Below are positions 3,177 through 56,278 of a DNA stretch of 64,000 bases, piece after piece. How positions within the stretch are numbered: the stretch's first letter is position 1; every line of letters starts with the position of its first letter. The DNA is from Gammaproteobacteria bacterium. Lineage in GTDB: Bacteria; Pseudomonadota; Gammaproteobacteria; Eutrophobiales; Eutrophobiaceae. The stretch is taken from the NCBI GenBank assembly GCA_965248145.1, contig OZ252091.1:2626649-2690648 (forward strand). Direction: 5' to 3'. Both the position numbers and the translations under genes were made by a program. Below the pieces are notes generated by a model. That model saw only the letters and a program-made list of their open reading frames with translations. It did no database searches and had not been told where the DNA came from.

Positions 3177-3300
3177 GCCACAGAGGACACAGAGATCACA
3201 GAGTAAATCGAGAATCATTTTGAATCATGGGTAACCTTTATGTTTATCGATTTATCTTATCCATTATTCATTTTGTTTTTATCTCTGTGTCCTCTGTGGC
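3177..3300. mobile_element. MITE-like intergenic repeat (type A), full copy.
   Basis: Termini are GCCACAGAGGACACAGAGATCACAGAGT ... TCTCTGTGTCCTCTGTGGC. The same ~125-135 bp element with inverted ends recurs at 4789-4920, 9467-9649 and 40192-40323. Confidence 0.75.
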
Positions 3301-3320: not shown

Positions 3321-4754
3321 TCAGGCAAACAGGTTGCCGGGGTCCAGCGCCTGTTTGAGCCTTGTGCGTAATTCGCTCATTCCGGCGTTATCATAGCTTG
3401 CCAATGCCCTGTCCAGGTGGCCGGTGCTGATGTGGCTCACCCCGAATCCCCTGTCCGTCATCGTATCTATCAGCGCGTCAAGACAGGCGATAGCCCTGTC
3501 CTGGGCCGCGTCCTGATACGTGAGGTAAACCCGTTGAATAATGGAGCGCCAACCAACCGCATATTCCGTCAGGTAATCAAATCCTCTTTTTTGCAGCGTG
3601 TCGGTGACCAGTTTATTCATCTTCAATACCTGCCGGCCGTCAACAGGCGCGACAAAACCGGCGTACAAGTGTGAATGACCGGACCAGTTCCCCGGGTTAT
3701 TGAACTCGGTCGATGGTTGCCCGCGCATCATCCTCTCCCGGTTGGAAAACACCGGGTTTGTGGCCTGCGTCTTTAAATCGATGACCCTGGCTCCGCCAAT
3801 GCCGGCAAAAGCGCCCTGCACCATGGGCCATAACACATCGACGTTGGGGGGAGTGTTATACAGCGCGCCGTACAGGGTCCAAAGTCCCAGGCCATAATCC
3901 GTCTTCAGCCTTTCCATATCAACAGTATTACCGTCGGCATAATCCTGCCGGGACCTGAAAGGACTCACGTCGAGAAGCGGATTACTGATAACAACGGTGT
4001 TCGGTATGATCACGTTGACTTTAAATGATCGCAATATCTCAACGGCCTGTGCCATGTCACTGACAGCTTCCAGGGTGACTGCGAAAGGTTGATAAGCAGG
4101 CGGCGCCGGCATCAACCAGACCCCCATTTTGGTCACCACCCCGAGGTTGGATTGCGTAAACAAGCCATCCAGGTAGGGGCCGTAGGCATATTTCGCCAAT
4201 TGCCAGGTATTGCTGTTCGGCATGGCGCCCATACCCAGCCTGACCAACCCGCCGTCTGCCAGCATGACTTCCATCCCACACTGCATCATCGTATGATCGC
4301 CATACGCGGTATAACCAAACTCCCGGGCAGTGATACTGCCGGCAACGGAATTCAATCCATTCCTGTCACAGTCCACCCACAGACCGGTCTTGTTTTCCTC
4401 CAGGTACTCGTTCAGTTGCGCATAACTCACGCCCGGTTCCACCAGGGCATAAGCGCCTTTGGTGTTTACCTCCACGATGTTATTCATCCGGGATTGGTCC
4501 ACAACCAGGACATCCTTATCCGTTGAGGCATTGACCACACCCCCGTTAGCGGCAAGATTGGGCAGTATCCAGAGTGAAACACCTCTTTTGGCAGCGGCCG
4601 ACAATACTGTCCTCAACTGTTCAACGTCTTTGGGAAGAACCGCGCCGACAGGCGTTTTGCCGAAGCTCCCGTAACGCTCGCTGACAACCGAGCCTGACAA
4701 CACGGCGGTTTTACCCAGTTTACGCCTCAGTTCAGTGACTATCCGGTTTGCCAT
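3321..4754 (-). CDS. VAO/PCMH-family FAD-linked oxidase (vanillyl-alcohol oxidase / 4-cresol dehydrogenase flavoprotein-like), with no signal peptide.
   Basis: A 477-aa paralogue of the ORF at 7051-8691, showing the same block order (…GAYALVEPGVSY…, …MPAPPAYQPF…) typical of PCMH-type FAD-binding domains. Confidence 0.75.
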   Translation of the reverse strand: MANRIVTELRRKLGKTAVLSGSVVSERYGSFGKTPVGAVLPKDVEQLRTVLSAAAKRGVSLWILPNLAANGGVVNASTDKDVLVVDQSRMNNIVEVNTKGAYALVEPGVSYAQLNEYLEENKTGLWVDCDRNGLNSVAGSITAREFGYTAYGDHTMMQCGMEVMLADGGLVRLGMGAMPNSNTWQLAKYAYGPYLDGLFTQSNLGVVTKMGVWLMPAPPAYQPFAVTLEAVSDMAQAVEILRSFKVNVIIPNTVVISNPLLDVSPFRSRQDYADGNTVDMERLKTDYGLGLWTLYGALYNTPPNVDVLWPMVQGAFAGIGGARVIDLKTQATNPVFSNRERMMRGQPSTEFNNPGNWSGHSHLYAGFVAPVDGRQVLKMNKLVTDTLQKRGFDYLTEYAVGWRSIIQRVYLTYQDAAQDRAIACLDALIDTMTDRGFGVSHISTGHLDRALASYDNAGMSELRTRLKQALDPGNLFA

Positions 4755-4788: not shown

Positions 4789-4920
4789 GCCACAGAGGAC
4801 ACAGAGATCACAGAGTGAATCGAGATTCTTTTTGATACTTGGGCAACCAGAATGGTTAGCAATTTATCTTGATCATCATTCATATTATTTTTTCTCTGTG
4901 TCCTCTGTGTCCTCTGTGGC
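4789..4920. mobile_element. MITE-like intergenic repeat (type A), full copy.
   Basis: Same terminal sequences as 3177-3300, with the 3' end duplicated (TGTCCTCTGTGTCCTCTGTGGC). Confidence 0.75.
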
Positions 4921-9466: not shown

Positions 9467-9649
9467 GCCACAGAGGACACAGAGATCACAGAATCAGGGA
9501 AGAAGCAGGTTGGGATGGCCTTTTTAAGACCGTCGCCAGCCAGGGATGGCTGGCGATGAGCGTACAGGGACGTATTCACAGCGTGTCTTAAAAAGGCCAT
9601 GCCAACCTGCTGGAGTTATTATATTGAATGACTCTGTGTCCTCTGTGGC
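9467..9649. mobile_element. MITE-like repeat (type A ends) with a different internal core containing nested palindromes.
   Basis: It has the same GCCACAGAGGACACAGAGATCACAGA / CTCTGTGTCCTCTGTGGC termini. The interior carries the inverted repeats AGGTTGGGATGGCCTTTTTAAGAC / GTCTTAAAAAGGCCATGCCAACCT and CGCCAGCC-AGGG-ATGGCTGGCG. Confidence 0.7.
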
Positions 9650-11297: not shown

Positions 11298-11368
11298 CTA
11301 CAAAAGACACAGAGATTAGAGCGTCGCCTCCGGCGACACCTTATCACACGCGCAAGCGGGGTCAGGTT

Positions 11369-11920
11369 TTAGTGAAACACCCTGGGTCGAAAGTCTGCCT
11401 CGTTGACGATACTGGCGCTGCTGCCGGTCGCCCGGATGACGTACAAGCCCTGGCGTTGTGCCTGGAGTACCACGTTAGAATCTGCCTTCAGGTATGCCAC
11501 GGCGCCCAGTATCCTGTTCCCCTTGTAGCGCCGTACCCACCCGGTGAAGCGCTCCAGCTTCGACAGAAAATGGGTCACGTCCTCAAGCCGTAACGTGGTC
11601 TTTACTTCCACCACCACTTCCTCGCCGTTCACGGCCAGAATATCAAACTCGTAATGCCGGCCCTCCTGTCCGCCCTTCACATTGGTTGAGGTTTCCTCCA
11701 CCGCAATCCCCTGCGCTTGTAACAGGGGCACCAGGTCACCTTCCACCAGACTCTCCATCAGCTTGCCCCAGCGACTGTTAAATTGCGCATCCGTCTTTTT
11801 TAACTGCCGGTCGGTTTCCTTTATCTGCCGGGATAATTCTTTTTGTTCCTCAGCAATGTCGCGCAGGATGTTCCAGATTTCCTCGGGGGTGGCGGGGGCT
11901 CGTTGTGGTTGGTTTTCCAT
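11369..11920 (-). CDS. Hypothetical protein with an N-terminal coiled coil and a C-terminal PD-(D/E)XK-like nuclease fold.
   Basis: Start chosen at MENQPQR, which is preceded by AAGGAG. The EFDILAVNGEEVVVEVKT segment resembles a D...E-x-K restriction-endonuclease-like core. No specific family recognised. Confidence 0.45.
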   Translation of the reverse strand: MENQPQRAPATPEEIWNILRDIAEEQKELSRQIKETDRQLKKTDAQFNSRWGKLMESLVEGDLVPLLQAQGIAVEETSTNVKGGQEGRHYEFDILAVNGEEVVVEVKTTLRLEDVTHFLSKLERFTGWVRRYKGNRILGAVAYLKADSNVVLQAQRQGLYVIRATGSSASIVNEADFRPRVFH

Positions 11921-12426
11921 GGTGACTTTCTCCTTTTTCATGTTGATGTTGCTAAATAGTAAAAGAGTAACGGGAGCATGTCAAAGTTAACAGTATGTCG
12001 CCAGGAGCGACTTATTGCACACGCAGAGGTTTGTCACACTCATTATCTTTGCGTGTGCAATGTGCGACCTGTCCCCCGTGTCCCCCGGACCCCACTGTCC
12101 CCCGATACGGGACCGTACACATTATATGTTACAGATACTGACAGTTTATCTATTCCTAACATTGATCTATACTGTTCCATACCATATATGATACGCTGTT
12201 TTATAAATACATAACATGCCCGTTTTCGTATCAGCGTACCGGGCAAGCTCTATCATGCCCGGTTTTGGCAGACGCGATGAGACGGGCAGATCATTAGAGG
12301 AGATAACGCGAATGAGATTTGAAAAAGCCTATTATGGTTGGACAGCGCGGCGCTTAACCCGGGAGGCTGCGGCGACAGTTGAGCAACCGGTTTCACACAC
12401 TATCTTCGCGAACCGCTAACAAAGGC

Positions 12427-12456
12427 TTGACATTCCTGATTTTTACTCACTAATAA
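12427..12456 (+). promoter_or_regulatory. Sigma70-like promoter (TTGACA - 17 nt - TAATAA) directly upstream of, and overlapping, the ATG that precedes the heptanucleotide repeat.
   Basis: Read directly: TTGACAttcctgatttttactcacTAATAATG. It marks the sharp boundary between AT-normal DNA and the GC-rich island. Confidence 0.35.
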
Positions 12457-13883
12457 TGTTCGACCGAGAGCCGAGAGCCGAGAGCCGAGAGCCGAGAGCC
12501 GAGAGCCGAGAGCCGAGAGCCGAGAGCCGAGAGCCGAGAGCCGAGAGCCGAGAGCCGAGAGCCGAGAGCCGAGAGCCGAGAGCCGAGAGCCGAGAGCCGA
12601 GAGCCGAGAGCCGAGAGCCGAGAGCCGAGAGCCGAGAGCCGAGAGCCGAGAGCCGAGAGCCGAGAGCCGAGAGCCGAGAGCCGAGAGCCGAGAGCCGAGA
12701 GCCGAGAGCCGAGAGCCGAGAGCCGAGAGCCGAGAGCCGAGAGCCGAGAGCCGAGAGCCGAGAGCCGAGTTGTGTCCGCAATTCGCCGGGGCGCGCCATG
12801 CCCCGGCTGGACGCAGCGTCACGAAGCGCGCCGCCTGAGCCTTCCCGGGCCGCGCGCTTCTTCCGCCCTGCCGATTGTTTCCTCCGCGTCGGGGCGGGGC
12901 TTGCGCGGGCGGGACGCCGTGGCCTCCCGGCGGGGCTGCTTGCAATCGTGTTGCTGGTCTTTCCGGTCGCTGCCGGAGCCGGGGCCGGCAATGCCACCGG
13001 CAGGCCGAGTTTTTCGGGGCAACCGATCCAAACCGGGGTGATTACCGCCATCACCAGCGGGATCGGGGATCCCGACGGGGTGGACACCGGCACTTTCGCA
13101 TACGAATGGCTTCGCTGTGACTCGACCGGCAACAACTGCAATACCACTGCCGGGACGGCCTCGACCTATACGCTGACCAATGCCGATATCGGCTTCAGGT
13201 TCAGGCTGCGGGTGAACTTCGAGGACAGCGATGGCAATGCCGAGTCGCGCACCAGCTTTCCATGGCCATCACGCTCCGGGAATGCGATCTACGCGTACCC
13301 GGCCTGCGCCGAGTCGGACTTGACGAGTCTCGACAGTATGAACCGAACGGCAATCTGGACCGGGACGCTGACGGTGGGGTTCTTCAAACAAGACAACACT
13401 TCCTTCTATGGGCGGGGACGGAGAGCTGGAACTTGGTACGGTCAACTCACCGATTCAGTGTTCTCTATCGATTCGAAAAACTACAGATTGCGCCTCCTCA
13501 ATTCGGAAGACGGCGGGACGGGGGACGGTGACCTTAACGTCGTATTCTACACCGCAACAAATGAAGCCTTGGGAAGCGCACACTACGCCGCACACCGCGC
13601 CGCTCTTGAGGAATATGCTCAAGTGCACATCTGCGACAAGGCGTTTGTCATAAGCGAAGCATCAAATTCGAACAGAAGTACGTATGTTTTTCTCGCTGCT
13701 TTTGAGCCCTTTCTGAGCGGGAGCACCCGGACGATACGCGTGAGCGTGCCGAATTCACTCTTGAACGCCGCACCGGAATCGATGGACAACAGCGTGGCGA
13801 CCAACGAGGACGAGGCCTACACCTTCCAGGTAAGCGACTTCCACTTCACCGACCCCGACATGGGGGCGCGCTCGCGAGCGTGA
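12456..13883 (+). CDS. 5' part of a giant GC-rich surface adhesin-like gene: heptamer repeat, signal/TM-like segment, cadherin/VCBS-like repeat. It is interrupted by a frameshift at about 13862-13866.
   Basis: Hydrophobic LLAIVLLVFPVAAGAGAG segment. Repeat module GVITAITSGIGDPDGVDTGTFAYEWLRCDSTG...YTLTNADIGFRFRLRVNFEDSDGNAES. The C-terminal domain (...YTFQVSDFHFTDPD) continues in the next ORF in another frame. Confidence 0.6.
   Translation: MFDREPRAESREPRAESREPRAESREPRAESREPRAESREPRAESREPRAESREPRAESREPRAESREPRAESREPRAESREPRAESREPRAESREPRAESREPSCVRNSPGRAMPRLDAASRSAPPEPSRAARFFRPADCFLRVGAGLARAGRRGLPAGLLAIVLLVFPVAAGAGAGNATGRPSFSGQPIQTGVITAITSGIGDPDGVDTGTFAYEWLRCDSTGNNCNTTAGTASTYTLTNADIGFRFRLRVNFEDSDGNAESRTSFPWPSRSGNAIYAYPACAESDLTSLDSMNRTAIWTGTLTVGFFKQDNTSFYGRGRRAGTWYGQLTDSVFSIDSKNYRLRLLNSEDGGTGDGDLNVVFYTATNEALGSAHYAAHRAALEEYAQVHICDKAFVISEASNSNRSTYVFLAAFEPFLSGSTRTIRVSVPNSLLNAAPESMDNSVATNEDEAYTFQVSDFHFTDPDMGARSRA
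12464..12769. repeat. Heptanucleotide simple sequence repeat, (CCGAGAG)n equivalent to (GAGAGCC)n, about 43 perfect copies.
   Basis: Perfect 7-bp periodicity over ~305 bp starting 6 nt after ATG 12456. Translated it gives (REPRAES)n in all three frames. Unit length is not a multiple of 3, so copy number sets the reading frame. Confidence 0.95.
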
Positions 13884-16800
13884 AGCTGGTGTCCCTGCCG
13901 GCGAAGGACACGCTCAAGCTCTTAACCGTGGCGGTGACGGCGAACCAGGTGGTGCCGGCGGGCGAGATCGGCAACCTGACCTACACCCCGGCCGAGAACG
14001 GGAACGGACCGGGCTACGACAGCTTCACCTTCAAGGTCAACGACGGCACCGACGATAGCGCGACGCCCAACACCATGACCATCGACGTGGCCTCGGTGAA
14101 CGACGAGCCGACGGGCCTGCCGACCATCACCGGCACGCTGACCGTCGGCCAGACGCTGACGGCGGACACCAGCGCCATCATGGACGTGGACGGGCTGACG
14201 AGCCCCGGCTACGGCTACGAGTGGATGCGGGCGGACCCGGGCCCTGTGAACCAGGAACCCATCGCCGGCGCGACCATGAAGACCTACACCCTGACCGACG
14301 CCGAAGCGGGCAAGGTGATCGCGGTGTCGGTGGCCTTCACCGACGACGGGGGCAGCAAACGGAGGCTGACCAGCGACTACTATCCGACAAGCGACACGGT
14401 GGCGGCCATCGCCCCCGGCAAGCCGAACGAACTCTTGGCGACGCCGGGCAACGCCCAGGTGACGCTGGATTGGATGGAGCCGACGAGCGACGGCGGGGCG
14501 GACATCACGGGCTACGAGTACCGCTGGTCGGAGGGCTCGACGGTGCCGGATAGCACGGCCTGGACCGCGGTGGCGGGCGGCGGCGTGCGGACGGTCGTCG
14601 TGACCGGCCTCGTCAACGACACGCAATACGCCTTCGAGGTGCGCGCGGTGAACAGCGCCGGCCCCGGCCCGGCGTCCGGCCCGGCGACCGCGACGCCGAC
14701 GGTGCAGTGGCGGCTGGTCAACGGGGCCGTGGCGCATGAGGGGCGGCTGGAGCTGCTCCACAACGGCGCGTGGGGGACGGTCTGCGACGACTACTGGACC
14801 GATGTCGAGGCGGACGTGGCGTGCCGGGCGGTGGGCTACTCAGGGGGCGCGGAGCGCTCGGAGCCGGGCGCGGAGCAGTTCCGGCGAGCCTATTTCGGCC
14901 AGGGCACGGGCGCCATCTGGCTCGACGACGTGAACTGTGTGGGCGACGAGGCGAGCCCGCTGATGTGTCTGCACGGGGGGGTCGGGGTGAACAACTGCGA
15001 CCACCGGGAGGATGTCGGGGTGCGGTGCAGGACGACCACGACGCCGCGGGTGGAGTCCATCGAGGTGAGCCCTGCGCCCGGGGGGAACGGGCGCTACGAC
15101 GCGGGCGAGACGCTGGCGGTGACGCTGGTGTGGAGCGAGCCGGTGACGGTGGCGACCCCGGCAGGCGCCCTGGCGCCGAAGGTGTGGGTCGCGTACGGCG
15201 TGGGCGTGGAGGCCAGGGCGGAGTATGCGAGCGGGTCGGGGACGGCGCGCACGGTGTTCGCGCACACGCTGACGCAAGCCGACAAGTTGGTGGATGACGG
15301 CGGACCGGTGTCGTACGAGGAGGTGCAGGTGTACCGCAACAGCCTGCGGCTGCGCGGCGGCGCCATCACGTCGGTGGCGGCCGGGGTGGCGGCGGCGCTC
15401 GGGCACGACGGGTACCCGGACGCGGCGCGCCAGCTCGAGGCGGCGGTGGTGGTGGGGCCGCCCGGCCTGAGCGCGGCGGGCGCCGACGGGGTCTGGGGTG
15501 CGGGCGAGACGGTGGAGGTGACGCTCGCCTTCAGCCGCGCGGTGACGGTGGACACGGCGGGCGGCACGCCGACGGTGGGTCTGCGGCTCGGCGGCTCGGC
15601 CGGGCGCAGCGCCGCCTACCTGCGCGGCAGCGGGACGACGGTGCTGGTGTTCGGTTACACGCTCGCCGGCGACGACGGCGCGCACACTGCGCTGCTGGTG
15701 CCGGAGAACAGCCTGGCGCTGAACGGCGGCGCCATCCGGGGCCGGCTGGCGGGGCTCGACGCGGCGCTCGGCCACGACGGCGCGGGCGAGGTGGTGGCGC
15801 CGCCGCCGCCGGGTGGGGCGTCCGGTCCGACGGCGCGCTTCGAGGGGCTGCCCGCGGCCCACGAGGGATCGGGCGCGTTTTCGTTCGAATTGCACTTCAG
15901 CGAAGAGCCCGAGGGCTTGAGCTACACGACGGTGGGCGGCGGGCTGCTCACGCTGAGCGGCGGCGCGGTGAGCGGCGCGCGGCGCCTCGCGCAGGGCAGC
16001 GATGCGGGCTGGGCGGTGAGCGTCGAGCCGGCCGGGGACGGCGACGTGATCATTAGCCTGCCGGCGCGGGCGTGCGGCGAGACGCACGCGATGTGCTTCG
16101 CCGGGCGGCCGCTGGCGGAAGCGGTCTCGGCGACGGTGCCGGGAGCGTCTTCGACGGCGACGGTGCCGCGGACGCCGTTCACGGCGTCGTTCTCCGGCGT
16201 GCCGCCGGAGCATGACGGCGCGGGCGCGTTCACCCTCACCCTCGCCTTCGGCGCGGAGCCGGCGGGGCTGAGCTACCGGACGGTGCGGGACAGCCTGTTC
16301 ACGGTGACCGGCGGCGCGGTGACGAAGGCGCGGCGGCTCAGCCCCCCATCGAACCGGCGCTACGAGCTCACCGTCGAGCCCGCCGGCGACGCGGCGGTGA
16401 GGCTTGCGCTGGCGGCGCTGCCGGCCTGTGGTGTGGCGGGTTCGGTGTGCACGGCGGACGGACGCGCGCTCTCGGGAGCGCTCTCGGCGACGGTGCCGGG
16501 TCCGGCGGCGCTCTCGGTTGCGGATGCGAACGTGCGCGAGGGGCCGGGGGCGGTGCTGGCGTTCCGGGTCACCCTCGACCGGACGCGCCATGCCGCGGTG
16601 ACGGTGGACTACGACACCTCGGACGGGGCCGGGACCAAGCCCGCGAACGCGGGTACGGACTATACCGCGAAGAGCGGCACGCTTACCTTCGCCAGCGGGG
16701 AGAGCAGCAAGACAGTCTCAGTCGTTGTGCTTGATGACAGCCACGACGAGGGTGCGGAGACAATGTCCTTGACGTTGTCGAACCCGTCCGGCGCCAGCAT

Positions 16801-17305
16801 CGCTGATGCCACGGCAACGGGGACTATCAACAACACCGATGCCATGCCGCTGGCCTGGCTGTCCCGCTTTGGCCGCACCGTAGGGACGCATGTAATGACC
16901 ATGGTGGACGAGCGTATGCTGGCGGCCTCGCAGCAGGCGTCCCACCTGACGTTGAATGGCCGACAGATGCAGTGGGGTACGCCGGGGTCGGCAGATACCA
17001 GTCTGTCCGAACGCACCCGCGCCCTGCTTGGCAACTGGACCCGGGACCGGCAGTCACTGGAGAGCCTGCTGAGCGGCAACGTGGGAGCAAGCCCGCGCGC
17101 AGTCCTGTCCCGCAGTTCGTTCTATTGGACCAATATGCCCGCGGACGGGTCGGATACAGGACAAGGAGTCGCCTCCGGCGACACCTTATTTGATTGGACT
17201 CCGGGTCAAGCCCGGAGTAATGACGGTCGGGGCAGGAATGACAACGGAGGCAACACCGTCACCCCGGGCTTGACCCGGGGTCCAGTTGATAATGTGTCGC
17301 CGTAG
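13880..17305 (+). CDS. 3' part of the giant adhesin-like gene, carrying a cadherin/VCBS-like repeat, a fibronectin type III domain, an SRCR domain, repeated Ala/Gly-rich beta modules and a Calx-beta domain.
   Basis: FN3 at ~14411-14700 (PGKPNELLATPGNAQVTLDWMEPTSDGGADITGYEYRW...). SRCR at ~14707-15030 (WRLVNGAVAHEGRLELLHNGAWGTVCDDYW...CVGDEASPLMCLHGG...VGVRCR). Calx-beta at ~16507-16840 (…DYDTSDGAGTKPANAGTDYTAKSGTLTFASGESSKTVSVVVLDDSHDEGAE…). The GTG 'start' is really the continuation of the upstream ORF. Confidence 0.6.
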   Translation: MKLVSLPAKDTLKLLTVAVTANQVVPAGEIGNLTYTPAENGNGPGYDSFTFKVNDGTDDSATPNTMTIDVASVNDEPTGLPTITGTLTVGQTLTADTSAIMDVDGLTSPGYGYEWMRADPGPVNQEPIAGATMKTYTLTDAEAGKVIAVSVAFTDDGGSKRRLTSDYYPTSDTVAAIAPGKPNELLATPGNAQVTLDWMEPTSDGGADITGYEYRWSEGSTVPDSTAWTAVAGGGVRTVVVTGLVNDTQYAFEVRAVNSAGPGPASGPATATPTVQWRLVNGAVAHEGRLELLHNGAWGTVCDDYWTDVEADVACRAVGYSGGAERSEPGAEQFRRAYFGQGTGAIWLDDVNCVGDEASPLMCLHGGVGVNNCDHREDVGVRCRTTTTPRVESIEVSPAPGGNGRYDAGETLAVTLVWSEPVTVATPAGALAPKVWVAYGVGVEARAEYASGSGTARTVFAHTLTQADKLVDDGGPVSYEEVQVYRNSLRLRGGAITSVAAGVAAALGHDGYPDAARQLEAAVVVGPPGLSAAGADGVWGAGETVEVTLAFSRAVTVDTAGGTPTVGLRLGGSAGRSAAYLRGSGTTVLVFGYTLAGDDGAHTALLVPENSLALNGGAIRGRLAGLDAALGHDGAGEVVAPPPPGGASGPTARFEGLPAAHEGSGAFSFELHFSEEPEGLSYTTVGGGLLTLSGGAVSGARRLAQGSDAGWAVSVEPAGDGDVIISLPARACGETHAMCFAGRPLAEAVSATVPGASSTATVPRTPFTASFSGVPPEHDGAGAFTLTLAFGAEPAGLSYRTVRDSLFTVTGGAVTKARRLSPPSNRRYELTVEPAGDAAVRLALAALPACGVAGSVCTADGRALSGALSATVPGPAALSVADANVREGPGAVLAFRVTLDRTRHAAVTVDYDTSDGAGTKPANAGTDYTAKSGTLTFASGESSKTVSVVVLDDSHDEGAETMSLTLSNPSGASIADATATGTINNTDAMPLAWLSRFGRTVGTHVMTMVDERMLAASQQASHLTLNGRQMQWGTPGSADTSLSERTRALLGNWTRDRQSLESLLSGNVGASPRAVLSRSSFYWTNMPADGSDTGQGVASGDTLFDWTPGQARSNDGRGRNDNGGNTVTPGLTRGPVDNVSP

Positions 17306-38727: not shown

Positions 38728-38923
38728 CCGTCATTCCGGGCTTGACCCGGAATCCAGTCAAATAAACCTTCCTTATAAGGAATCATTTAATCCACTGGAT
38801 TCTGGCATTCGCCAGAATGACGGCAGGGGAAAGACGGATGTTTTTGACGCCAGAGCGAGTCGTGCATTGTCTGCCTTATCTGAGTCTGTATTAATCTTTT
38901 TTCTCTGTGTTCTCTGTGGCTGA
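38728..38923. repeat. Intergenic inverted-repeat element between nuoE and nuoD, ending in a half-site of the type A MITE terminus (TTTTCTCTGTGTTCTCTGTGGC).
   Basis: Inverted repeats CCGGCATCCGTCATTCCGGGCTTGACCCGGAATCCAGTC / GACTGGATTCTGGCATTCGCCAGAATGACGGCAGG. Related motifs (CGGGCTTGACCCGG, AATGACGG) recur at 17225-17280. Confidence 0.5.
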
Positions 38924-40177
38924 TCACCTGTCGATCTCGCCGAAAACAATGTCCTGCGTGCCGATCACCGCGACCACGTCGGCCAGCATGTGCCCCTGCA
39001 CCATTTCGTTCATGGCCGATAGGTGGACAAAACCCGGCGGCCGTATCTTCAGGCGATAAGGTTTATTGGCGCCGTCTGAGACCAGGTAAATGCCAAACTC
39101 CCCTTTCGGGTGCTCCACGGCCGCGTATACCTCCCCTTCCGGTATACAGTAACCTTCGGTGAACAGCTTGAAGTGATGTATCAGCGACTCCATGTCGTCT
39201 TTCATCACTTCTCTCCGGGGCGGAACCAGTTTGTAATCATCAATAATGACCGGGCCCGGATTATTTCGCAGCCAATCCACGCATTGTATAATAATGGCAT
39301 TTGACTGGCGCATCTCCTCGACGCGGACCAGGTAGCGATCATAACAGTCTCCGCTGCTGCCCACGGGTATAGCGAAATCCAGTTGTTCATAGACTTCGTA
39401 GGGCTGCTTCCTGCGCAGGTCCCACTCCACGCCCGAGCCGCGCAACATGGGGCCGGTAAAGCCCAGCTCCACCGCTCTTTCCGGGCTGACTACGCCTATC
39501 CCTACCGTACGCTGTTTCCAGATCCGGTTATCGGTCAGCAGGGTTTCATATTCGTCAACGCAGCCGGGGAAGCGTTCCGTAAAATCCTCGATAAAATCCA
39601 GCAATGAACCCTGCCGGGTATCATTTAATTTTCTCACCTCTTTATCCGAACGGTTTACGGTCACCGTGTATTGCGGCATCTGTGCGGGCAAATCACGATA
39701 GACGCCGCCCGGGCGGTAATAGGTTGCGTGCATCCTCGTACCGGATACCGCTTCGTAACAATCAATCAGGTCTTCCCGTTCACGGAAGCAATACAGGAAC
39801 ATGGTCATGGCGCCGATATCCAGGCCATGGGCGCCCAGCCACATGAGGTGGTTAAGGACGCGGGTAATCTCATCGAACATCACCCGTATGTAGCGGGCCC
39901 GAATGGGCGGGGTGACACCCAGTAATCTTTCAATGGCCAGCACGTAAGCGTGTTCATTACACATCATGGACACATAATCGAGCCGGTCCATGTAACCGAT
40001 ACTCTGGTTATAGGGTTTGCTCTCTGCCAGTTTTTCCGTAGCGCGATGCAATAACCCGATGTGCGGGTCGGCGCGTTCAATCACCTCCCCTTCCATCTCC
40101 AGCACCAGGCGCAATACCCCATGAGCCGCCGGGTGTTGCGGACCGAAGTTCATGGTCATGTTCCTGATTTCAGGCAT
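38924..40177 (-). CDS. nuoD: NADH-quinone oxidoreductase subunit D.
   Basis: 49-kDa subunit blocks. Length 417 aa. It is a separate gene from nuoC. Confidence 0.9.
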
Positions 40178-40191
40178 AAATGAAAAAACCT

Positions 40192-40323
40192 GCCACAGAG
40201 GGCACAGAGATCACAGAGTGGATCGAGAATCTTTTTAGTACCTGGATAACCTTCATGTTTATCAATTTATCTTGTCCATTATTCATTTTGTTTCTTCTCT
40301 GTGATCTCTGTGTCCTCTGTGGC
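40192..40323. mobile_element. MITE-like repeat (type A), full copy, inserted in the nuoC-nuoD intergenic region.
   Basis: GCCACAGAGGGCACAGAGATCACAGAGT ... TCTCTGTGATCTCTGTGTCCTCTGTGGC. It abuts the nuoC stop codon at 40324-40326. Confidence 0.75.
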
Positions 40324-45757: not shown

Positions 45758-48088
45758 TTAAAATGAAAGGCGCACGCCGAATATACCGGAACGTCCCGGT
45801 AACGGCGCCAGTTCTTTTACAAAAGACGTATGCCGGCGTATCTCTTCATCAAGCAGGTTGCTGGCGCTGGCAAACAGGGTAACATTATTGCCGGCCTGAC
45901 TTAGTCGGTAGCTGGCATAGAGGTTCAACAAGTCATAACCATCGGTAGGCGTTTCAAACAGCGCGGTGTCATTCTGTTTATTTACACGGGTATAACTCAG
46001 GGTCGCATACCAGGGACCCTGAAAATAAGTCAAGCCGGCGCCAAACCGCCAGGGAGTAATACGCGGCAGGTTGACATTATCAGAACGCTTACCTTCCACA
46101 TAATCTGCCCATAAACGTATATCCAGCGAGCCACTTTCGCCTTCCAGGGCATGTACGACTCCTTCCAGCTCAAAACCCATGAACTCCGCATCGTCCTGGA
46201 CCTGGGCAACGAGCAAGTGGACGCCATCCTCGTCCGGGTCCCGGATACCGGCCAGGTCGCCGGCGAAATCATCATGCACCCAGTCAGCGATGCCATCCTC
46301 GTTCAGGTCCTGCTCCTTCAGGAATATGAAATCATCAATCCGGTTATAGAATAAATTGACCGTGAGGGTGAGCCTCCCCGTCGCTTTCCGCCAGTAGAAA
46401 TCAATATTAGTAGACTTTTCCTTGCTCAGCTCAGTATCGCCATACTCAAACGTCGTTGTCGCGAGATGCGGACCTGCAGTATACAACTCCTCCAGAGACG
46501 GCGCCCGTTGCGCATGGGTGGCGACAAGACCCAGTTCATAACCGTCGCGGTAGTCCCAGTTCAGGCCGCCGGAGATGCTGAACAGGTCATGGCTGGTTTC
46601 CCCGCCGTTATCAGCGCTGGTGTCCTGATATTCATATCTGGCGCCGAATTCCATGTGCCAGTTCCCCATGTCACCTTTTTCCAACAAGAACGCGGCAATG
46701 GACTCCAACTCTGAGGGCGGGACAAAGTCTTCTTCGCCTATCGCGGCAAAATCCTTGTAGTGATACTGCAGACCGACGGCCCCTTGCCAGCCACCGAGGG
46801 GGTGATGCACAATCTCGACGCGGGCTTCCATCTCATTATTGTCAAAGGCCACACCTACGTTGCCGTCGGCTTCCACTTCATCATGATGATAGTCGTTGTA
46901 TGACGAGCGCGTTTTGATCCGGTGTATGCCGATAAAAGGATCATATAAGGACGCCTCGAAGTCATAACGTGTCTGCCCCATGTCTATCCGTGGGCGGCCT
47001 TCTCCTCCATGCCCCCCTTCTTCCTCGTGATGTCCCTCTTCCTCATCATGCCCTTCTTCCTCATGATGTTCCTCTTCATCATCATGATCTTCTCCCTCAT
47101 GGAAATCAATTCCATCCAGCAGATCTGTTTCATCATCATGATGGTGGTCTCCCAGAATGCCATAGTTGTTGTCAAGTCGGCTCACGGAAAAGCCGATGAA
47201 CCCGCGTTCACCGATCCAGGATGCCCCTGCTGCCACACTTTCCGTTTCGATACTGCTGTTTTCCAGTACGCCTTTCTCCATCTCATCATCCGGGTCCCTG
47301 TCCAATTCGGCGAACCCGGGAATTTTGTAGTCGTCGGTATGACGTTTCATACCGTCGATGTGAAAGGCGAAATTCCCTGCTCCGACGCTGAAGCTTCCGC
47401 CGCCGTTCACACCATCGTTGACGGTTTCATATTGTAGCGATATATCGGCCTGCAGGTCTTCCGGGACATATTTGGGAATGCGATCATTAACGACGTTGAC
47501 CACGCCGCCACTGGCGCCACTGCCAAAAAGCAACGTGGCAGGGCCACGAAAAATCTCAATCTGCCGGGCAAACGCAGGCTCCGTAGGTACTGCATGGTCA
47601 GCGCCTATATTGGCCACGTCCATGGTACTGATGCCATTTTCGAGCACGCTTACCCGACTGCCGGCCAGACCGCGAATGACGGGACGTCCTACCGCTGCAC
47701 CGAAATCACCGGAGCTCACGCCCAGCTCATTGGCAACCGCCTCTCCAATATTATGGATGCTACGGCTTTCGAGTTGTTTTTTTGTCAATACCTGGGCAGG
47801 TCGCGCCATGTGTTCATCTATATCACCCAATGGGTCGGCAGTGACGATTATCTCTTCCATATACTCATGACCAGCCGATGTGTGGGTATGACCCCCCGGT
47901 GTAAGCGAACGCTTGGGCGGTGTATGGGTATGACTGGCCGGTGTGTGGGCGTGCTCATCCTCCGCAGGCACGCTGGCAGCCGGGTCGTGCGCATCGCCGG
48001 CAACTTCATCGGCAAATGAAAACGATGCATGGATAACCACGACGATGGTCAACGAGGCTATACCTATTAATCGTAATGAATCAGGCAT
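45758..48088 (-). CDS. TonB-dependent receptor with His-rich N-terminal extension and a His/Glu/Asp-rich surface loop (ZnuD-like metal-uptake receptor).
   Basis: Plug and barrel blocks. N-terminal HAHTPASHTHTPP...GGHTHTSAGHE, and an internal loop HHHDDETDLLDGIDFHEGEDHDDEEEHHEEEGHDEEEGHHEEEGGHGGEG. Confidence 0.8.
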   Translation of the reverse strand: MPDSLRLIGIASLTIVVVIHASFSFADEVAGDAHDPAASVPAEDEHAHTPASHTHTPPKRSLTPGGHTHTSAGHEYMEEIIVTADPLGDIDEHMARPAQVLTKKQLESRSIHNIGEAVANELGVSSGDFGAAVGRPVIRGLAGSRVSVLENGISTMDVANIGADHAVPTEPAFARQIEIFRGPATLLFGSGASGGVVNVVNDRIPKYVPEDLQADISLQYETVNDGVNGGGSFSVGAGNFAFHIDGMKRHTDDYKIPGFAELDRDPDDEMEKGVLENSSIETESVAAGASWIGERGFIGFSVSRLDNNYGILGDHHHDDETDLLDGIDFHEGEDHDDEEEHHEEEGHDEEEGHHEEEGGHGGEGRPRIDMGQTRYDFEASLYDPFIGIHRIKTRSSYNDYHHDEVEADGNVGVAFDNNEMEARVEIVHHPLGGWQGAVGLQYHYKDFAAIGEEDFVPPSELESIAAFLLEKGDMGNWHMEFGARYEYQDTSADNGGETSHDLFSISGGLNWDYRDGYELGLVATHAQRAPSLEELYTAGPHLATTTFEYGDTELSKEKSTNIDFYWRKATGRLTLTVNLFYNRIDDFIFLKEQDLNEDGIADWVHDDFAGDLAGIRDPDEDGVHLLVAQVQDDAEFMGFELEGVVHALEGESGSLDIRLWADYVEGKRSDNVNLPRITPWRFGAGLTYFQGPWYATLSYTRVNKQNDTALFETPTDGYDLLNLYASYRLSQAGNNVTLFASASNLLDEEIRRHTSFVKELAPLPGRSGIFGVRLSF

Positions 48089-50049: not shown

Positions 50050-50225
50050 TCCGACGCCGCTCGTTAGTTCTGGGTAGTTCTGGGGACACGGGGTAGTTCT
50101 GGGGACACTAGTTCTGGGGACACAATACTTGGGTAGTTCTGGGGACACAATACTTAATTTCCAATTAGTTCTGGGGACACAATACTTAATTTCCAATTAG
50201 TTCTGGGGACACAATACTTAATTTC
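50050..50225. repeat. Array of 6 direct REP-like units (TAGTTCTGGGGACAC[AATACTTAATTTCCAAT]) immediately upstream of the RAYT gene.
   Basis: Direct reading. The same REP consensus (GTTCTGGGGACACAATACTTAATT) occurs singly or in inverted pairs at about 43030, 43140, 44585, 44640, 50910, 51800-51920, 52365, 56000 and 56130. Confidence 0.75.
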
Positions 50226-50239
50226 GGTATACTGTTAAT

Positions 50240-50908
50240 ATGGCAAGACTGACAAGGATCGTTCTACCCGGTTATCCCCACCATGTGACCCAGCGGGGCA
50301 ACCGTCGCCAGGATGTATTTTTTTGTGACGGCGATTTGCAGGCTTATCTGACTCTACTCAAGCAATGGTGCGCCAGGGAGTCGGTGCAGGTCTGGGCGTA
50401 CTGTCTGATGACCAACCACGTCCATCTGATTGTCAAACCGGAAGAAGGTTCCAACCTTAGCCGGGCCATCGGGGAGACACACAGGCGTTACACAAGGATG
50501 ATAAATTTTCGGGAACAATGGCGCGGCTATTTGTGGCAGGGTCGGTTTGCTTCCTTTGTGCTGGATGAACCGTGGTTGCTGCAGGCGGTTGCGTATGTGG
50601 AATATAATCCGGTGGCGGCGGGGATGGTAGCTCGGCCCTGGGATTATCGTTGGAGTAGCGTCCATGCCCATTTGGCTGGGGAGGACTCTCTGGGGATAGT
50701 GGAGGTAGCTCCGTTACTTGATTTAGTTGGGGGCGACTGGCAGGCCTACTTGAGTTCGTACAAGGTAGATGGGGACGGGAACTTTGCAACCCATGAGCGC
50801 ACGGGCAGACCTTTGGGGGATGAGGGATTTATTGACAGGATTGAGAGTGCGTTGAGCCGGGTGGTGAGAAAGAAAAAACCGGGGCCAAAACAACGGCAGG
50901 ATAATTAA
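50240..50908 (+). CDS. REP-associated tyrosine transposase (RAYT, IS200/IS605 Y1 HUH family).
   Basis: The HUH motif MTNHVHLIV and a downstream catalytic-Tyr region. Length 222 aa. It is flanked by REP arrays. Confidence 0.8.
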   Translation: MARLTRIVLPGYPHHVTQRGNRRQDVFFCDGDLQAYLTLLKQWCARESVQVWAYCLMTNHVHLIVKPEEGSNLSRAIGETHRRYTRMINFREQWRGYLWQGRFASFVLDEPWLLQAVAYVEYNPVAAGMVARPWDYRWSSVHAHLAGEDSLGIVEVAPLLDLVGGDWQAYLSSYKVDGDGNFATHERTGRPLGDEGFIDRIESALSRVVRKKKPGPKQRQDN

Positions 50909-52333: not shown

Positions 52334-52403
52334 CTGTTTTCTGCTCAAGTCGGAGTTTTGGAGTTCTGGGGGAGTTCTGGGGACACAATTATTCATTTCC
52401 AGA

Positions 52404-55958: not shown

Positions 55959-56278
55959 TCGGGGCGTAAGCTGAAGTTGAATCCACCTTCATTTATGATA
56001 ATTCATCGAATTCTGGGCGAATTCTGGGGACATAATACTTAATTCGTTTTTCGAGCCTATTTTTTCTTTCTCACACCCGACCCAACGCTCTCTCAAGACC
56101 AGGATGACCATACTGACAGAATGGCAAAATTAAATATTGTGTTCCTAGAACTCTAAAACTACATTAAAACACAATATAATCTATTTTTCTTTCCTTTTTA
56201 TGCTTTTCTTAGTAGTACTATATTAAAATTCATGATATTCTCTAAAAACGTTATCAATCTGAATTTTGATATAGTTAG

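What the first reader, a model, noticed from the sequence alone, without database searches (positions are those of the whole stretch)
12456..12769. About 43 copies of a GAGAGCC heptanucleotide repeat between a sigma70-like promoter and the body of the adhesin gene: candidate slipped-strand phase-variation switch
The repeat unit is 7 bp, which is not a multiple of 3, so gain or loss of a single unit shifts the frame. With 43 units (43x7 = 301; 301 mod 3 = 1) the ATG at 12456 is in frame with the ~1,600-codon downstream ORF. With 42 or 44 units it would not be. The repeat begins 6 nt after an ATG that itself overlaps a near-consensus -10 element, so copy number could also alter promoter-to-start spacing or 5'-leader structure. 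Long perfect SSRs at the 5' end of surface-protein genes are the classic signature of contingency loci.
Basis: partly seen in the sequence, partly recalled or inferred. Interest (0 to 1): 0.8.

Follow-up and report, generated by a model that had tools for sequence, protein, structure and literature searches.

The report
Hypervariable heptamer repeat before adhesin gene
A perfect 43-copy run of the 7-base unit GAGAGCC lies between a promoter-like site and a gene for a large secreted protein. The same repeat-plus-leader module recurs in many uncultured bacteria, and its length runs from about 1 to 183 copies between near-identical strains, so it is most likely a mutable expression dial in the untranslated leader, not a reading-frame switch.

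Summary
The repeat is real: 43 perfect GAGAGCC units (12466-12766; TRF 12464-12769, 43.7 copies, 100% identity). The frame claim is only partly right. ATG 12456 is in frame with a 475-codon ORF, not about 1,600 codons. The remaining 1,141 codons are in another frame because of a 1-nt deficit in a G5 run (13862-13866).

The tract belongs to a family. At least 55 ORFs from metagenome assemblies, and DNA from about 10 independent loci, show the same order:
- an AT-rich, -10-like box;
- (GAGAGCC)n on the sense strand;
- a conserved GC-rich hairpin leader;
- a signal peptide;
- a large fn3/cadherin/Calx-beta/SRCR protein.

One locus with flanks at least 98.7% identical carries 7, 21, 336 or 1,283 nt of repeat in four assemblies. 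The orthologous locus in a related strain carries (GACAGCC)5, and about 14 units in a further assembly.

The leader is read in different frames at different loci, and its ATG is not conserved, so repeat and leader are most likely untranslated.

Best reading: a hypermutable SSR in the transcribed 5' leader that tunes expression, analogous to (ATCTTTC)n of Haemophilus influenzae hmw1A/2A. Hypervariability is shown. The transcription start and any effect on expression are inferred.

The parts
12427..12457 (+). Promoter-like site: TTGACA (12427-12432), 19-nt spacer, AATAAT (12452-12457). It predicts a transcription start at about 12462-12468, in the first repeat unit.
   Evidence: Sequence read. 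The scan tool did not call it because the spacer is 19 nt. The same arrangement is called by the tool at the related locus L124 (TTGACG-17-TACAAT, ending 4 nt before the partial unit GAGCC that leads into the repeat) and at L252 (TTAACA-18-TATGAT, overlapping TGaTATAAT). An AT-rich box lies in the 16 nt before the tract at 11 of the 12 loci listed.
12456..12458 (+). Upstream ATG used by the gene caller. Probably not the real start codon.
   Evidence: It has no SD in the preceding 16 nt and overlaps the -10-like hexamer. Upstream 'starts' at related loci are not conserved.
12464..12769 (+). (GAGAGCC)43 heptanucleotide SSR. The purine-rich strand is the sense strand.
   Evidence: It is the longest of the tracts found in the truncated genome-contig scan. 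As RNA it is essentially unstructured: the centroid has no pairs and z = -0.62.
12770..12935 (+). GC-rich leader between the repeat and the hydrophobic core of the signal peptide. It starts GAGTTGTGTCC, as in L252, L109 and L046.
   Evidence: Alignment A1. BLAST finds window 12724-12808 85% identical to the ortholog L252, while the neighbouring sequence is unalignable.
12785..12807 (+). Conserved hairpin GCCGGGGCG-CGCCA-UGCCCCGGC (9 bp, -19.6 kcal/mol). It buries the in-frame ATG 12798-12800.
   Evidence: the same hairpin lies 10-20 nt after the repeat in L124, L249, L250, L125, L126, L127, L128 and L252, at -11 to -21 kcal/mol. In alignment A3, 95% of cells are paired and one pair shows G-C, G-U, C-G and A-U, but covariation is not significant (106 of 500 shuffles).
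12798..13865 (+). First part of the secreted-protein gene. ATG 12798 is the most likely start and the only canonical in-frame start after the repeat. The hydrophobic signal-peptide core LLAIVLLVFPVAAGAG lies at 12936-12983, followed by an Ig-like N-terminal region.
   Evidence: Weak IG_AIR9 match.
13862..13866 (+). G5 run where the reading frame changes by -1, equivalent to one missing G. Either a pseudogene or a homopolymer error in the assembly.
13865..17305 (+). Remainder of the gene: cadherin-like/Big_9, fn3, SRCR and Calx-beta domains.
   Evidence: Pfam matches: SRCR 9.4e-25, Calx-beta 1e-15, fn3 2.3e-11.
11345..17218 (.). Variable island between conserved flanks. It holds a different adhesin allele in the related strain, and its GC is 60-77% against about 50% in the flanks.
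   Evidence: BLAST against L252: flanks 94-98% identical; within the island only the leader (85%) and part of the C-terminus (about 70-75%) align. Composition.

Best explanation
The tract is a hypermutable heptanucleotide simple-sequence repeat. It lies in the transcribed but untranslated 5' leader of a gene for a large secreted protein with eukaryote-like domains.

Proposed mechanism:
1. Transcription starts at a sigma70-type promoter whose -10 box ends a few bases before the first unit.
2. The mRNA therefore begins with (GAGAGCC)n, followed by a conserved GC-rich hairpin and then the coding region.
3. Strand slippage, possibly helped by transcription or R-loops on the purine-rich sense strand, changes n over a very wide range.
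4. Changing n alters the length, and probably the stability or processivity, of the leader. Expression of the surface protein then varies between cells and strains as a graded dial, not as a 3-periodic frame switch.

Shown here: the anatomy, the recurrence of the module, and extreme copy-number polymorphism at orthologous loci.
Inferred: the transcription start, the untranslated status of the repeat, and any effect of n on expression, including its direction.
For: 1. Purity and length: 43 perfect units.

2. Hypervariability at one locus: four assemblies share flanks 98.7-99.9% identical over 2.5 and 4 kb, yet carry 7, 21, 336 and 1,283 nt of repeat.

3. The window's own locus: a related strain has (GCCGACA)5 in the same place. 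A further assembly has about 14 units there.

4. Other loci: protein pairs with the same flanking peptides differ in tract length. P0026/P0033 have about 33 and 21 units, P0007/P0050 about 51 and 18, P0031/P0105 about 31 and 27, and P0037/P0052 about 14 and 11.

5. Recurrent module: at least 55 ORFs from ENA assemblies (those with a tract of at least about 10 units) carry the tract, with lengths up to 184 units. DNA loci L124-L128, L046, L059, L109 and L048 have the same order of parts.

6. Promoter directly upstream. No promoter-like site lies between the repeat and the gene in the window.

7. The leader is not consistently coding. Called ORFs read it in all three frames. Its frame relative to the signal peptide differs between L128 and the window. 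Its ATG is CAC in L126-L128.

8. Precedent: the heptameric (ATCTTTC)n of H. influenzae hmw1A is transcribed in the 5'-UTR, and expression is inversely proportional to its length (PMC12721329).
Against: - There are no transcript or read-level data, so the transcription start and within-population heterogeneity of the window's own tract are untested.
- The window's -35/-10 spacer is 19 nt, which is suboptimal.
- The only canonical in-frame start after the repeat (ATG 12798) has no clear SD, is buried in a -19.6 kcal/mol hairpin, and lies 46 codons before the hydrophobic core.
- The gene is frameshifted at 13862-13866, so this copy may be decaying and its tract may be unconstrained.
- Covariation support for the hairpin is not significant.
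- There is no sign of an hmw-like long hairpin between the repeats and a complementary arm (z = 0.46).
- No effect of n on expression is shown for any member.
Confidence: 0.6

Rival explanations
1. Translational frame switch. Translation starts at ATG 12456 and the repeat encodes (ESREPRA)n. Gain or loss of one unit throws the downstream ORF out of frame, giving ON/OFF phase variation.
For: The unit length is not a multiple of 3. With 43 units, ATG 12456 is in frame with ORF 12456..13883. The other two frames end by 13041 and 13120. Gene callers extend many family members through the tract.
Against: - The tract has no T, so it is open in all frames. Any downstream ORF extends through it whatever n is, and being in frame is uninformative.
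- ATG 12456 lacks an SD and overlaps the -10-like box. In L124 the upstream start (GTG) lies inside the promoter spacer.
- Alleles with 336 and 1,283 nt (0 and 2 mod 3) both give through-ORFs, using unrelated upstream starts.
- The leader is read in different frames at different loci, and L252 has an in-frame stop before the signal peptide.
- A signal peptide about 160 residues from the N-terminus would be unusual.
- ATG 12456 is in frame with only 475 of about 1,600 codons.
Confidence: 0.12
2. Neutral or selfish microsatellite. A slippage-prone motif in a shared leader expands and contracts without regulatory consequence. In the window it sits in front of a decaying, frameshifted gene.
For: The gene is frameshifted. 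Allele sizes span 1-183 units with no obvious optimum. The unit itself can mutate (GACAGCC in L252). No functional data exist.
Against: - The same unit, in the same orientation and the same position between -10 box and leader hairpin, recurs at dozens of loci in front of apparently intact secreted-protein genes.
- Tracts stay perfectly pure at 37-171 units.
- The variant unit GACAGCC is rare and short in the database.
- A 0.3-1.3 kb insertion between promoter and start codon is unlikely to leave expression unchanged. This last point is inference.
Confidence: 0.2
3. The repeat encodes a genuine N-terminal low-complexity domain (ESREPRA)n of the protein, and its length variation is ordinary protein-repeat polymorphism.
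For: ORFs with the heptad are called in many assemblies. ESREPRA-like heptads also occur inside housekeeping proteins of other phyla (P0040, P0061 and others).
Against: - Alleles differ by numbers of nucleotides that are not multiples of 3 or 21 (7, 21, 336, 1,283 nt).
- The domain would precede the signal peptide.
- Upstream start codons are not conserved.
- Alleles with 1-3 units lack the domain altogether.
Confidence: 0.03
4. Assembly artefact: a spurious expansion produced by the assembler.
For: Some related contigs have only 2-8x coverage.
Against: The window contig has 98x coverage by its name. The tract appears independently in many assemblies and samples, always with the same anatomy.
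Confidence: 0.02

Closest known systems
Haemophilus influenzae hmw1A/hmw2A heptameric (ATCTTTC)n SSR in the 5'-UTR (PMC12721329, PMC8262952)
   Same: - The unit is 7 nt.
- The tract lies between the promoter and the start codon of a large adhesin gene with strong allelic diversity.
- In hmw it is transcribed as part of the leader; here that is predicted.
- The natural range of copy number is wide (11-63 in hmw).
- It acts as a graded 'rheostat', not a frame switch.
   Different: - The unit, leader and protein are unrelated in sequence; Pfam finds no two-partner-secretion domain.
- No long hairpin between the repeats and a complementary downstream arm is detectable.
- A short 9-bp GC hairpin follows the tract instead.
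- Alleles range from about 1 to 183 units.
- The module occurs in MAGs labelled Gamma- and Alphaproteobacteria, and in front of different protein families. A tract-plus-secreted-protein arrangement without the leader also occurs in an Acidobacteriota MAG.
- The effect on expression is untested.
Coding-region SSR switches of Neisseria and Haemophilus (for example opa CTCTT and lic1 CAAT; from general knowledge and the introduction of PMC12721329)
   Same: A pure SSR whose unit is not a multiple of 3, at the 5' end of a surface-protein gene, and hypermutable.
   Different: In those systems the tract lies after a defined start codon and inside the signal-peptide or N-terminal coding region. Here no conserved start precedes the tract, and the leader is not read in a constant frame.
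Moraxella catarrhalis uspA2 (AGAT)n 5'-UTR repeat (from memory, not checked here)
   Same: An SSR in the untranslated leader of an adhesin gene that affects mRNA level.
   Different: It is a tetranucleotide with a narrow copy-number range in a single species.
Cyanobacterial STRR heptanucleotide repeats (from memory, not checked here)
   Same: Tandem 7-nt repeats in non-coding DNA, recurring at many loci.
   Different: Different sequences and taxa. STRRs are not tied to a promoter-leader position in front of secreted-protein genes.

Membership tests
SSR contingency locus (phase or rheostat variation) | A long, pure simple-sequence repeat | tested here: met
   43.7 copies at 100% identity; 42 matches against 0.29 expected by chance.
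SSR contingency locus (phase or rheostat variation) | Copy number differs between closely related strains or populations at the same locus | tested here: met
   For a family member: 7, 21, 336 and 1,283 nt between flanks 98.7-99.9% identical. For the window's own locus: the related strain has 5 units, and about 14 in another assembly, of a one-base variant unit. Heterogeneity within the window's own population could not be tested because no reads were available.
SSR contingency locus (phase or rheostat variation) | The tract is positioned so that its length can affect expression, that is, inside or just upstream of the gene | tested here: met
   It lies between the -10-like box and the only downstream start codon, and no promoter-like site lies after it.
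SSR contingency locus (phase or rheostat variation) | Copy number changes expression, reversibly and at high frequency | not testable with these tools
   This needs reporter assays, metatranscriptomes or per-read counts.
SSR contingency locus (phase or rheostat variation) | The controlled gene encodes a surface or host-interaction protein | tested here: inconclusive
   There is a signal-peptide-like N-terminus plus SRCR, fn3, Calx-beta and cadherin-like domains. Adhesin function is an inference, and the gene is frameshifted.
Translational (frameshift) SSR switch | The tract lies downstream of a functional, conserved start codon with a ribosome-binding site | tested here: not met
   ATG 12456 has no SD and overlaps the -10-like box. 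Upstream starts differ or lie inside the promoter at related loci.
Translational (frameshift) SSR switch | Unit length is not a multiple of 3 | tested here: met
   The unit is 7 nt.
Translational (frameshift) SSR switch | The sequence between tract and mature protein is read in one conserved frame | tested here: not met
   The leader is read in three frames among called ORFs. The frame relative to the signal peptide differs between L128 and the window, and the leader ATG is absent in L126-L128.
hmw-type 5'-UTR heptameric SSR | Heptameric SSR between promoter and adhesin start codon, transcribed in the 5'-UTR | tested here: inconclusive
   The position is met. Transcription is inferred from promoter-like sites only.
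hmw-type 5'-UTR heptameric SSR | A long RNA hairpin formed by about 10 repeats and a complementary downstream arm, processed by RNase III | tested here: not met
   The fold of 11 units plus the leader is no better than shuffles (z = 0.46). The tract alone is unstructured. This is prediction only.
hmw-type 5'-UTR heptameric SSR | Homology to hmw promoter, leader or HMW adhesin | tested here: not met
   The unit is different (GAGAGCC against ATCTTTC). Pfam domains are SRCR, fn3, Calx-beta and cadherin-like, with no TPS/haemagglutination domain. Rfam has no match.

The most novel reading that the evidence does not exclude
The promoter-(GAGAGCC)n-hairpin leader is a horizontally shared expression cassette. 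It moves, with or without its cargo gene, among phylogenetically distant members of one host-associated (probably marine-invertebrate or sponge) microbiome. It places many different surface proteins with eukaryote-like domains under a common, hypermutable dial. Expansion to more than 1 kb suggests a transcription- or R-loop-driven expansion process beyond simple replication slippage.
Probability: 0.3. Interest if true: 0.8.

Novelty: new variant of a known kind. Interest (0 to 1): 0.62.

Why it matters
SSR contingency loci are known almost entirely from cultured pathogens and commensals. This one is a heptamer SSR module seen only in uncultured bacteria from metagenome assemblies. It sits in front of large secreted proteins with eukaryote-like domains (SRCR, fn3, cadherin, Calx-beta), the class thought to mediate contact between symbiont and host.

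If tract length tunes expression, these symbionts vary their host-facing surface stochastically, as pathogens do. The question is directly testable with data that already exist: each HiFi read spanning a tract gives a copy number, so in-situ switching can be measured without cultivation.

There is also a practical point. Gene callers turn these leaders into false N-terminal '(ESREPRA)n' protein extensions. At least 55 such ORFs are in the database.

I found no paper containing the repeat string, and none on SSR contingency loci in sponge symbionts.

Tried and rejected
- **Metagenome-contig scan with the leader pattern** GCCNCGGCTGARCCGATGC: 120 hits, none next to a GAGAGCC repeat, so they are chance matches in GC-rich DNA. 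The scan was wasted.
- **Protein search with a profile of the leader peptide (A4):** nothing at E <= 1, because the profile is too short.
- **Rfam:** no family in the whole window at gathering scores, or in 12300-13100 at E <= 1.
- **Viral contigs:** no tract of 5 or more units.
- **hmw-like long hairpin:** not supported.
- **Covariation test of the leader hairpin:** 95% paired, but not significant with 7 sequences.
- **Transposase remnant:** I suspected the small ORF 12312-12419 was one. Neither Pfam nor NCBIfam supports this, so the idea is dropped.
- **Most GTDB loci with 3-6 units** (Gemmatimonadaceae, Methylomirabilota, Streptomyces and others) are not this module. They lack the leader and the downstream signal peptide.
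- **One listing of cluster members was lost** to wrong minus-strand coordinates.
- **Sample accessions** were not found in any paper. The host or environment is therefore inferred, not shown.
- **Assembly artefact:** rejected, because the tract appears independently in many assemblies.
Full report
**1. The observation**

The window holds one outstanding tandem array at 12464-12769: period 7, 43.7 copies, 100% identity and no indels. It comprises 43 complete GAGAGCC units at 12466-12766. The 14-mer occurs 42 times against 0.29 expected by chance.

Just upstream lie TTGACA (12427-12432) and AATAAT (12452-12457). The AATAAT overlaps ATG 12456. The spacer between the two hexamers is 19 nt, so the consensus scan did not call a promoter there.

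ATG 12456 opens an ORF that runs through the repeat, but it ends at 13883 after 475 codons. The 1,141-codon ORF 13880..17305 is in another frame. A peptide joined across the G5 run 13862-13866 gives full-length Big_9 and Cadherin_5 matches. This is therefore one gene with a 1-nt deficit: either a pseudogene or a homopolymer error of the assembler.

The repeat is confirmed. The claim that the ATG is in frame with about 1,600 codons is not.

**2. The gene and its setting**

The gene product has these parts:
- a hydrophobic, signal-peptide-like core (LLAIVLLVFPVAAGAG, 12936-12983);
- an Ig-like region;
- cadherin-like/Big_9, fn3, SRCR and Calx-beta domains.

The gene's GC content is 60-77%, against about 50% in the flanks. 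The source is a 3.77-Mb contig of an ENA metagenome assembly (ERZ25766727, ctg362337_98x_c). Neighbouring proteins cluster at 90% identity or more with proteins named 'Gammaproteobacteria bacterium'.

**3. The tract is one member of a family**

A protein search with the 475-aa ORF returned dozens of ORFs from ENA assemblies that carry (ESREPRA)n. At least 55 of them have tracts of about 10 to 184 units.

DNA was recovered for about ten independent loci: L124/L249/L250/L251 (one locus), L125, L126, L127, L128, L046, L059, L109 and L048. Two loci share the window's anatomy on all four points below: the L124 locus (L124, L249, L250, L251) and L125. L126-L128 share points 2 to 4. The remaining loci share only some, as stated under each point.
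1. An AT-rich, -10-like box ends 0-9 nt before the first unit. For L124 the tool calls TTGACG-17-TACAAT, 10 of 12 matches. L252 has TGaTATAAT. L125 has only a weak -10-like box, L126-L128 have none that is clearly canonical, and the L059 spacer is too long. One search gives the AT content of the 16 nt before the tract at 12 loci.
2. The tract has its purine-rich strand as the sense strand.
3. A GC-rich leader follows. Its first 10-20 nt lead into a 9-bp hairpin, GCCG(N)GGCG...(Y)GCC(N)CGGC, of -11 to -21 kcal/mol. This hairpin was found in the window, L124, L249, L250, L125, L126, L127, L128 and L252. It was not found in L046, L109 or L251. L059 and L048 were not tested, and the L059 leader is unrelated in sequence. 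L046, L109 and L048 share only the first bases of the leader (GAG-TG-GTCC-like).
4. A signal peptide and a large secreted protein come next. The proteins belong to different families (N-termini '..WSTTMTVGE..', 'TLVSNxGQ..', 'VPxDWSLKP..') and carry fn3, cadherin-like, Calx-beta and SWM-repeat domains. L109 and L048 showed no signal-peptide-like stretch in the crude test.

L125 comes from the same metagenome as the window but from a different contig with about 70% GC. Its 24-nt hairpin block matches the window's at 22 of 24 positions.

Taxon labels are available for L046 and L109 (Alphaproteobacteria), L048 (Gammaproteobacteria) and L059 (Ca. Versatilivoraceae, Acidobacteriota). Most other genome-contig hits with 3-6 units are not this module.

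**4. Hypervariability is shown directly**

| Locus or pair | Tract | Flank identity |
|---|---|---|
| L124 | 336 nt (48 units) | reference |
| L249 | 1,283 nt (171 + 12 units) | 99.8-99.9% to L124 |
| L250 | 21 nt (3 units) | about 98-99% to L124 |
| L251 | 7 nt | about 99% to L124 |
| L252 / P0156 | 5 / about 14 units of GACAGCC | same locus, two assemblies |
| P0026 / P0033 | about 33 / 21 units | same flanking peptides |
| P0007 / P0050 | about 51 / 18 units | same flanking peptides |
| P0031 / P0105 | about 31 / 27 units | same flanking peptides |
| P0037 / P0052 | about 14 / 11 units | same flanking peptides |

The first four rows are one locus with the same gene neighbours in four assemblies. 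L249 and L251 come from the same sample.

The window's own locus also exists in a related strain (L252), whose flanks are 94-98% identical to the window. There the island carries a different adhesin allele: only the leader (85%) and part of the C-terminus (about 70-75%) align. At the same position, after TGaTATAAT, it has (GCCGACA)5, a one-base variant of the unit.

A database search for long tracts of the variant unit found few, and all were short. GAGAGCC is therefore the predominant expanding unit.

**5. Coding or leader?**

GAGAGCC has no T. The sense strand of the tract is open in all three frames and gives the same heptad in each. Whatever frame the downstream gene uses, its ORF extends through the tract until it meets a stop in the AT-rich promoter. 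Gene callers then pick any start they find there. An in-frame upstream ATG is therefore not evidence for translation of the repeat.

Several observations argue against translation:
- ATG 12456 has no SD and overlaps the -10-like box.
- In L124 the called start (GTG) lies inside the promoter spacer.
- The 336-nt and 1,283-nt alleles (0 and 2 mod 3) both give through-ORFs, using unrelated upstream starts.
- Called ORFs read the conserved leader in all three frames: 'CPPGRVMPRLSRC', 'ARHASAEP' and 'RRGASCLG*'.
- The frame of the leader relative to the signal peptide differs between L128 and the window.
- The hairpin ATG is CAC in L126-L128.
- L252 has an in-frame stop between leader and signal peptide. 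That assembly may contain indel errors.

No promoter-like site lies between the repeat and the gene, so any transcript of the gene must include the tract. The repeat is thus most likely part of the 5'-UTR.

The true start codon stays uncertain. In the window, ATG 12798 is the only canonical in-frame candidate. It is buried in the hairpin and lies 46 codons before the hydrophobic core.

**6. Mechanism**

The best-supported reading is a hypermutable SSR in a transcribed leader that modulates expression through its length.

The closest precedent is the heptameric (ATCTTTC)n of H. influenzae hmw1A/2A. That tract is transcribed in the 5'-UTR, ranges from 11 to 63 copies in nature, and lowers expression as it lengthens (PMC12721329).

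The hmw mechanism relies on a long hairpin between the repeats and a complementary arm, processed by RNase III. No such hairpin is detectable here. The fold of 11 units plus the leader gives z = 0.46, and the tract alone is unstructured. A short GC hairpin follows the tract instead. It is conserved in sequence, but its covariation is not significant with 7 sequences.

How length would act is speculation. Candidates are R-loop formation on a purine-rich transcript, RNA decay, or premature termination.

The main rival is that the expansions are neutral, the more so because the window's gene copy is frameshifted.

**7. Novelty**

No paper in the library contains the repeat string. I found none on SSR contingency loci in sponge or other uncultured symbionts. 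Rfam has no match.

In kind this is a known phenomenon: an SSR-controlled surface-protein gene with a heptamer in the leader. What appears to be new:
- the unit and the leader;
- the recurrence in front of many different secreted-protein genes, in MAGs labelled Gamma- and Alphaproteobacteria, with the tract alone also in front of a secreted-protein gene in an Acidobacteriota MAG;
- the compositionally foreign island;
- the allele range of 1 to 183 units.

That the samples come from a sponge or similar host is my inference. It rests on the protein domain types and the style of the record names, and it is not shown.

**8. Verdict**

- Observation: partly confirmed.
- Interpretation: partly supported. 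The tract is a hypermutable contingency-type SSR, but most likely a leader rheostat and not a frame switch.
- Confidence: about 0.9 that the tract is hypervariable, about 0.7 that it is untranslated leader, and about 0.5-0.6 that its length tunes expression.

Noticed in passing
window 13862-13866: The adhesin-like gene is split into two ORFs by a 1-nt deficit in a G5 run. The stop of ORF1 overlaps a GTG (GTGA) at 13880-13883. A fused peptide restores complete Big_9 and Cadherin_5 domains. Either a real pseudogene or a homopolymer error of the assembler.
   Followed up: yes
window 11345-17218, compared with L252 11619-18067: A variable island lies between flanks 94-98% identical. The two strains carry different adhesin alleles with different N-terminal domains, both with 60-77% GC in a genome of about 50% GC. 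This points to allele replacement by horizontal transfer.
   Followed up: partly
window 3179-3203, 4791-4815, 4894-4918, 9469-9492, 38901-38918, 40194-40218, 40296-40321: Short tandem 9-mers (CACAGAGAA or its complement, 2-3 copies) recur in intergenic positions and bracket the genes 3321-4754 and 38924-40177. The copy at 9467-9492 is conserved in L252. Possibly a REP-like intergenic element.
   Followed up: no
window 50065-50225, 52360-52382, 56007-56028: A perfect 32-bp tandem repeat of 2.9 copies (TAGTTCTGGGGACACAATACTTAATTTCCAAT) lies just upstream of ORF 50240-50908. Related 'GTTCTGGG' repeats occur nearby and at two other sites. Possibly iterons or regulator-binding sites.
   Followed up: no
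window 47015-47101: Imperfect 18/36-bp repeats lie inside the 776-aa ORF 45758-48088 on the minus strand, giving a repetitive coding stretch.
   Followed up: no
L009, L019, L034, L050, L057, L067 (genome contigs); L005, L008, L013, L036 (Poribacteria): Other heptanucleotide SSRs (AAAGCCG, AAGAGCC, AGAGCCC, GGCTGCG; CAGTCAG- and ATCAGCC-type in Poribacteria) sit next to short GAGAGCC tracts. Compound heptamer microsatellites seem common in several uncultured lineages. Some Gemmatimonadaceae and Methylomirabilota MAGs have many loci with 3-6 units.
   Followed up: no
P0040, P0046, P0061, P0080 and others: Housekeeping proteins of other phyla carry ESREPRA-like heptads, for example hydroxymethylbilane synthase, the E2 subunit of 2-oxo acid dehydrogenase, and RNA 3'-phosphate cyclase in NC10 and related groups. 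The same DNA heptamer apparently expands inside coding regions there.
   Followed up: no
P0151, P0169, P0173: Mannheimia DNA methylase (N-4/N-6) ORFs contain (RQPTADS)5, that is, an (ACAGCCG)n heptamer tract near the 5' end. This looks like a coding-region SSR in a restriction-modification methylase.
   Followed up: no
L126, L127, L128 (about 100 nt upstream of each tract): Three loci in different genomic contexts share about 100 nt of nearly identical sequence upstream of the repeat as well as the leader downstream. The conserved module therefore extends beyond the repeat. P0025 combines the upstream part of P0007 with the downstream part of P0019, which hints at recombination through the tract.
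   Followed up: partly
L010 5911-6015 (Vibrio sp. CK2-1); L086 (Acidobacteriota): The same heptamer occurs independently elsewhere. In a Vibrio, 14-15 units lie in an intergenic gap just after a stop codon. In a soil Acidobacteriota MAG, 5 units lie about 25 nt before the SD and ATG of a signal-peptide protein.
   Followed up: no
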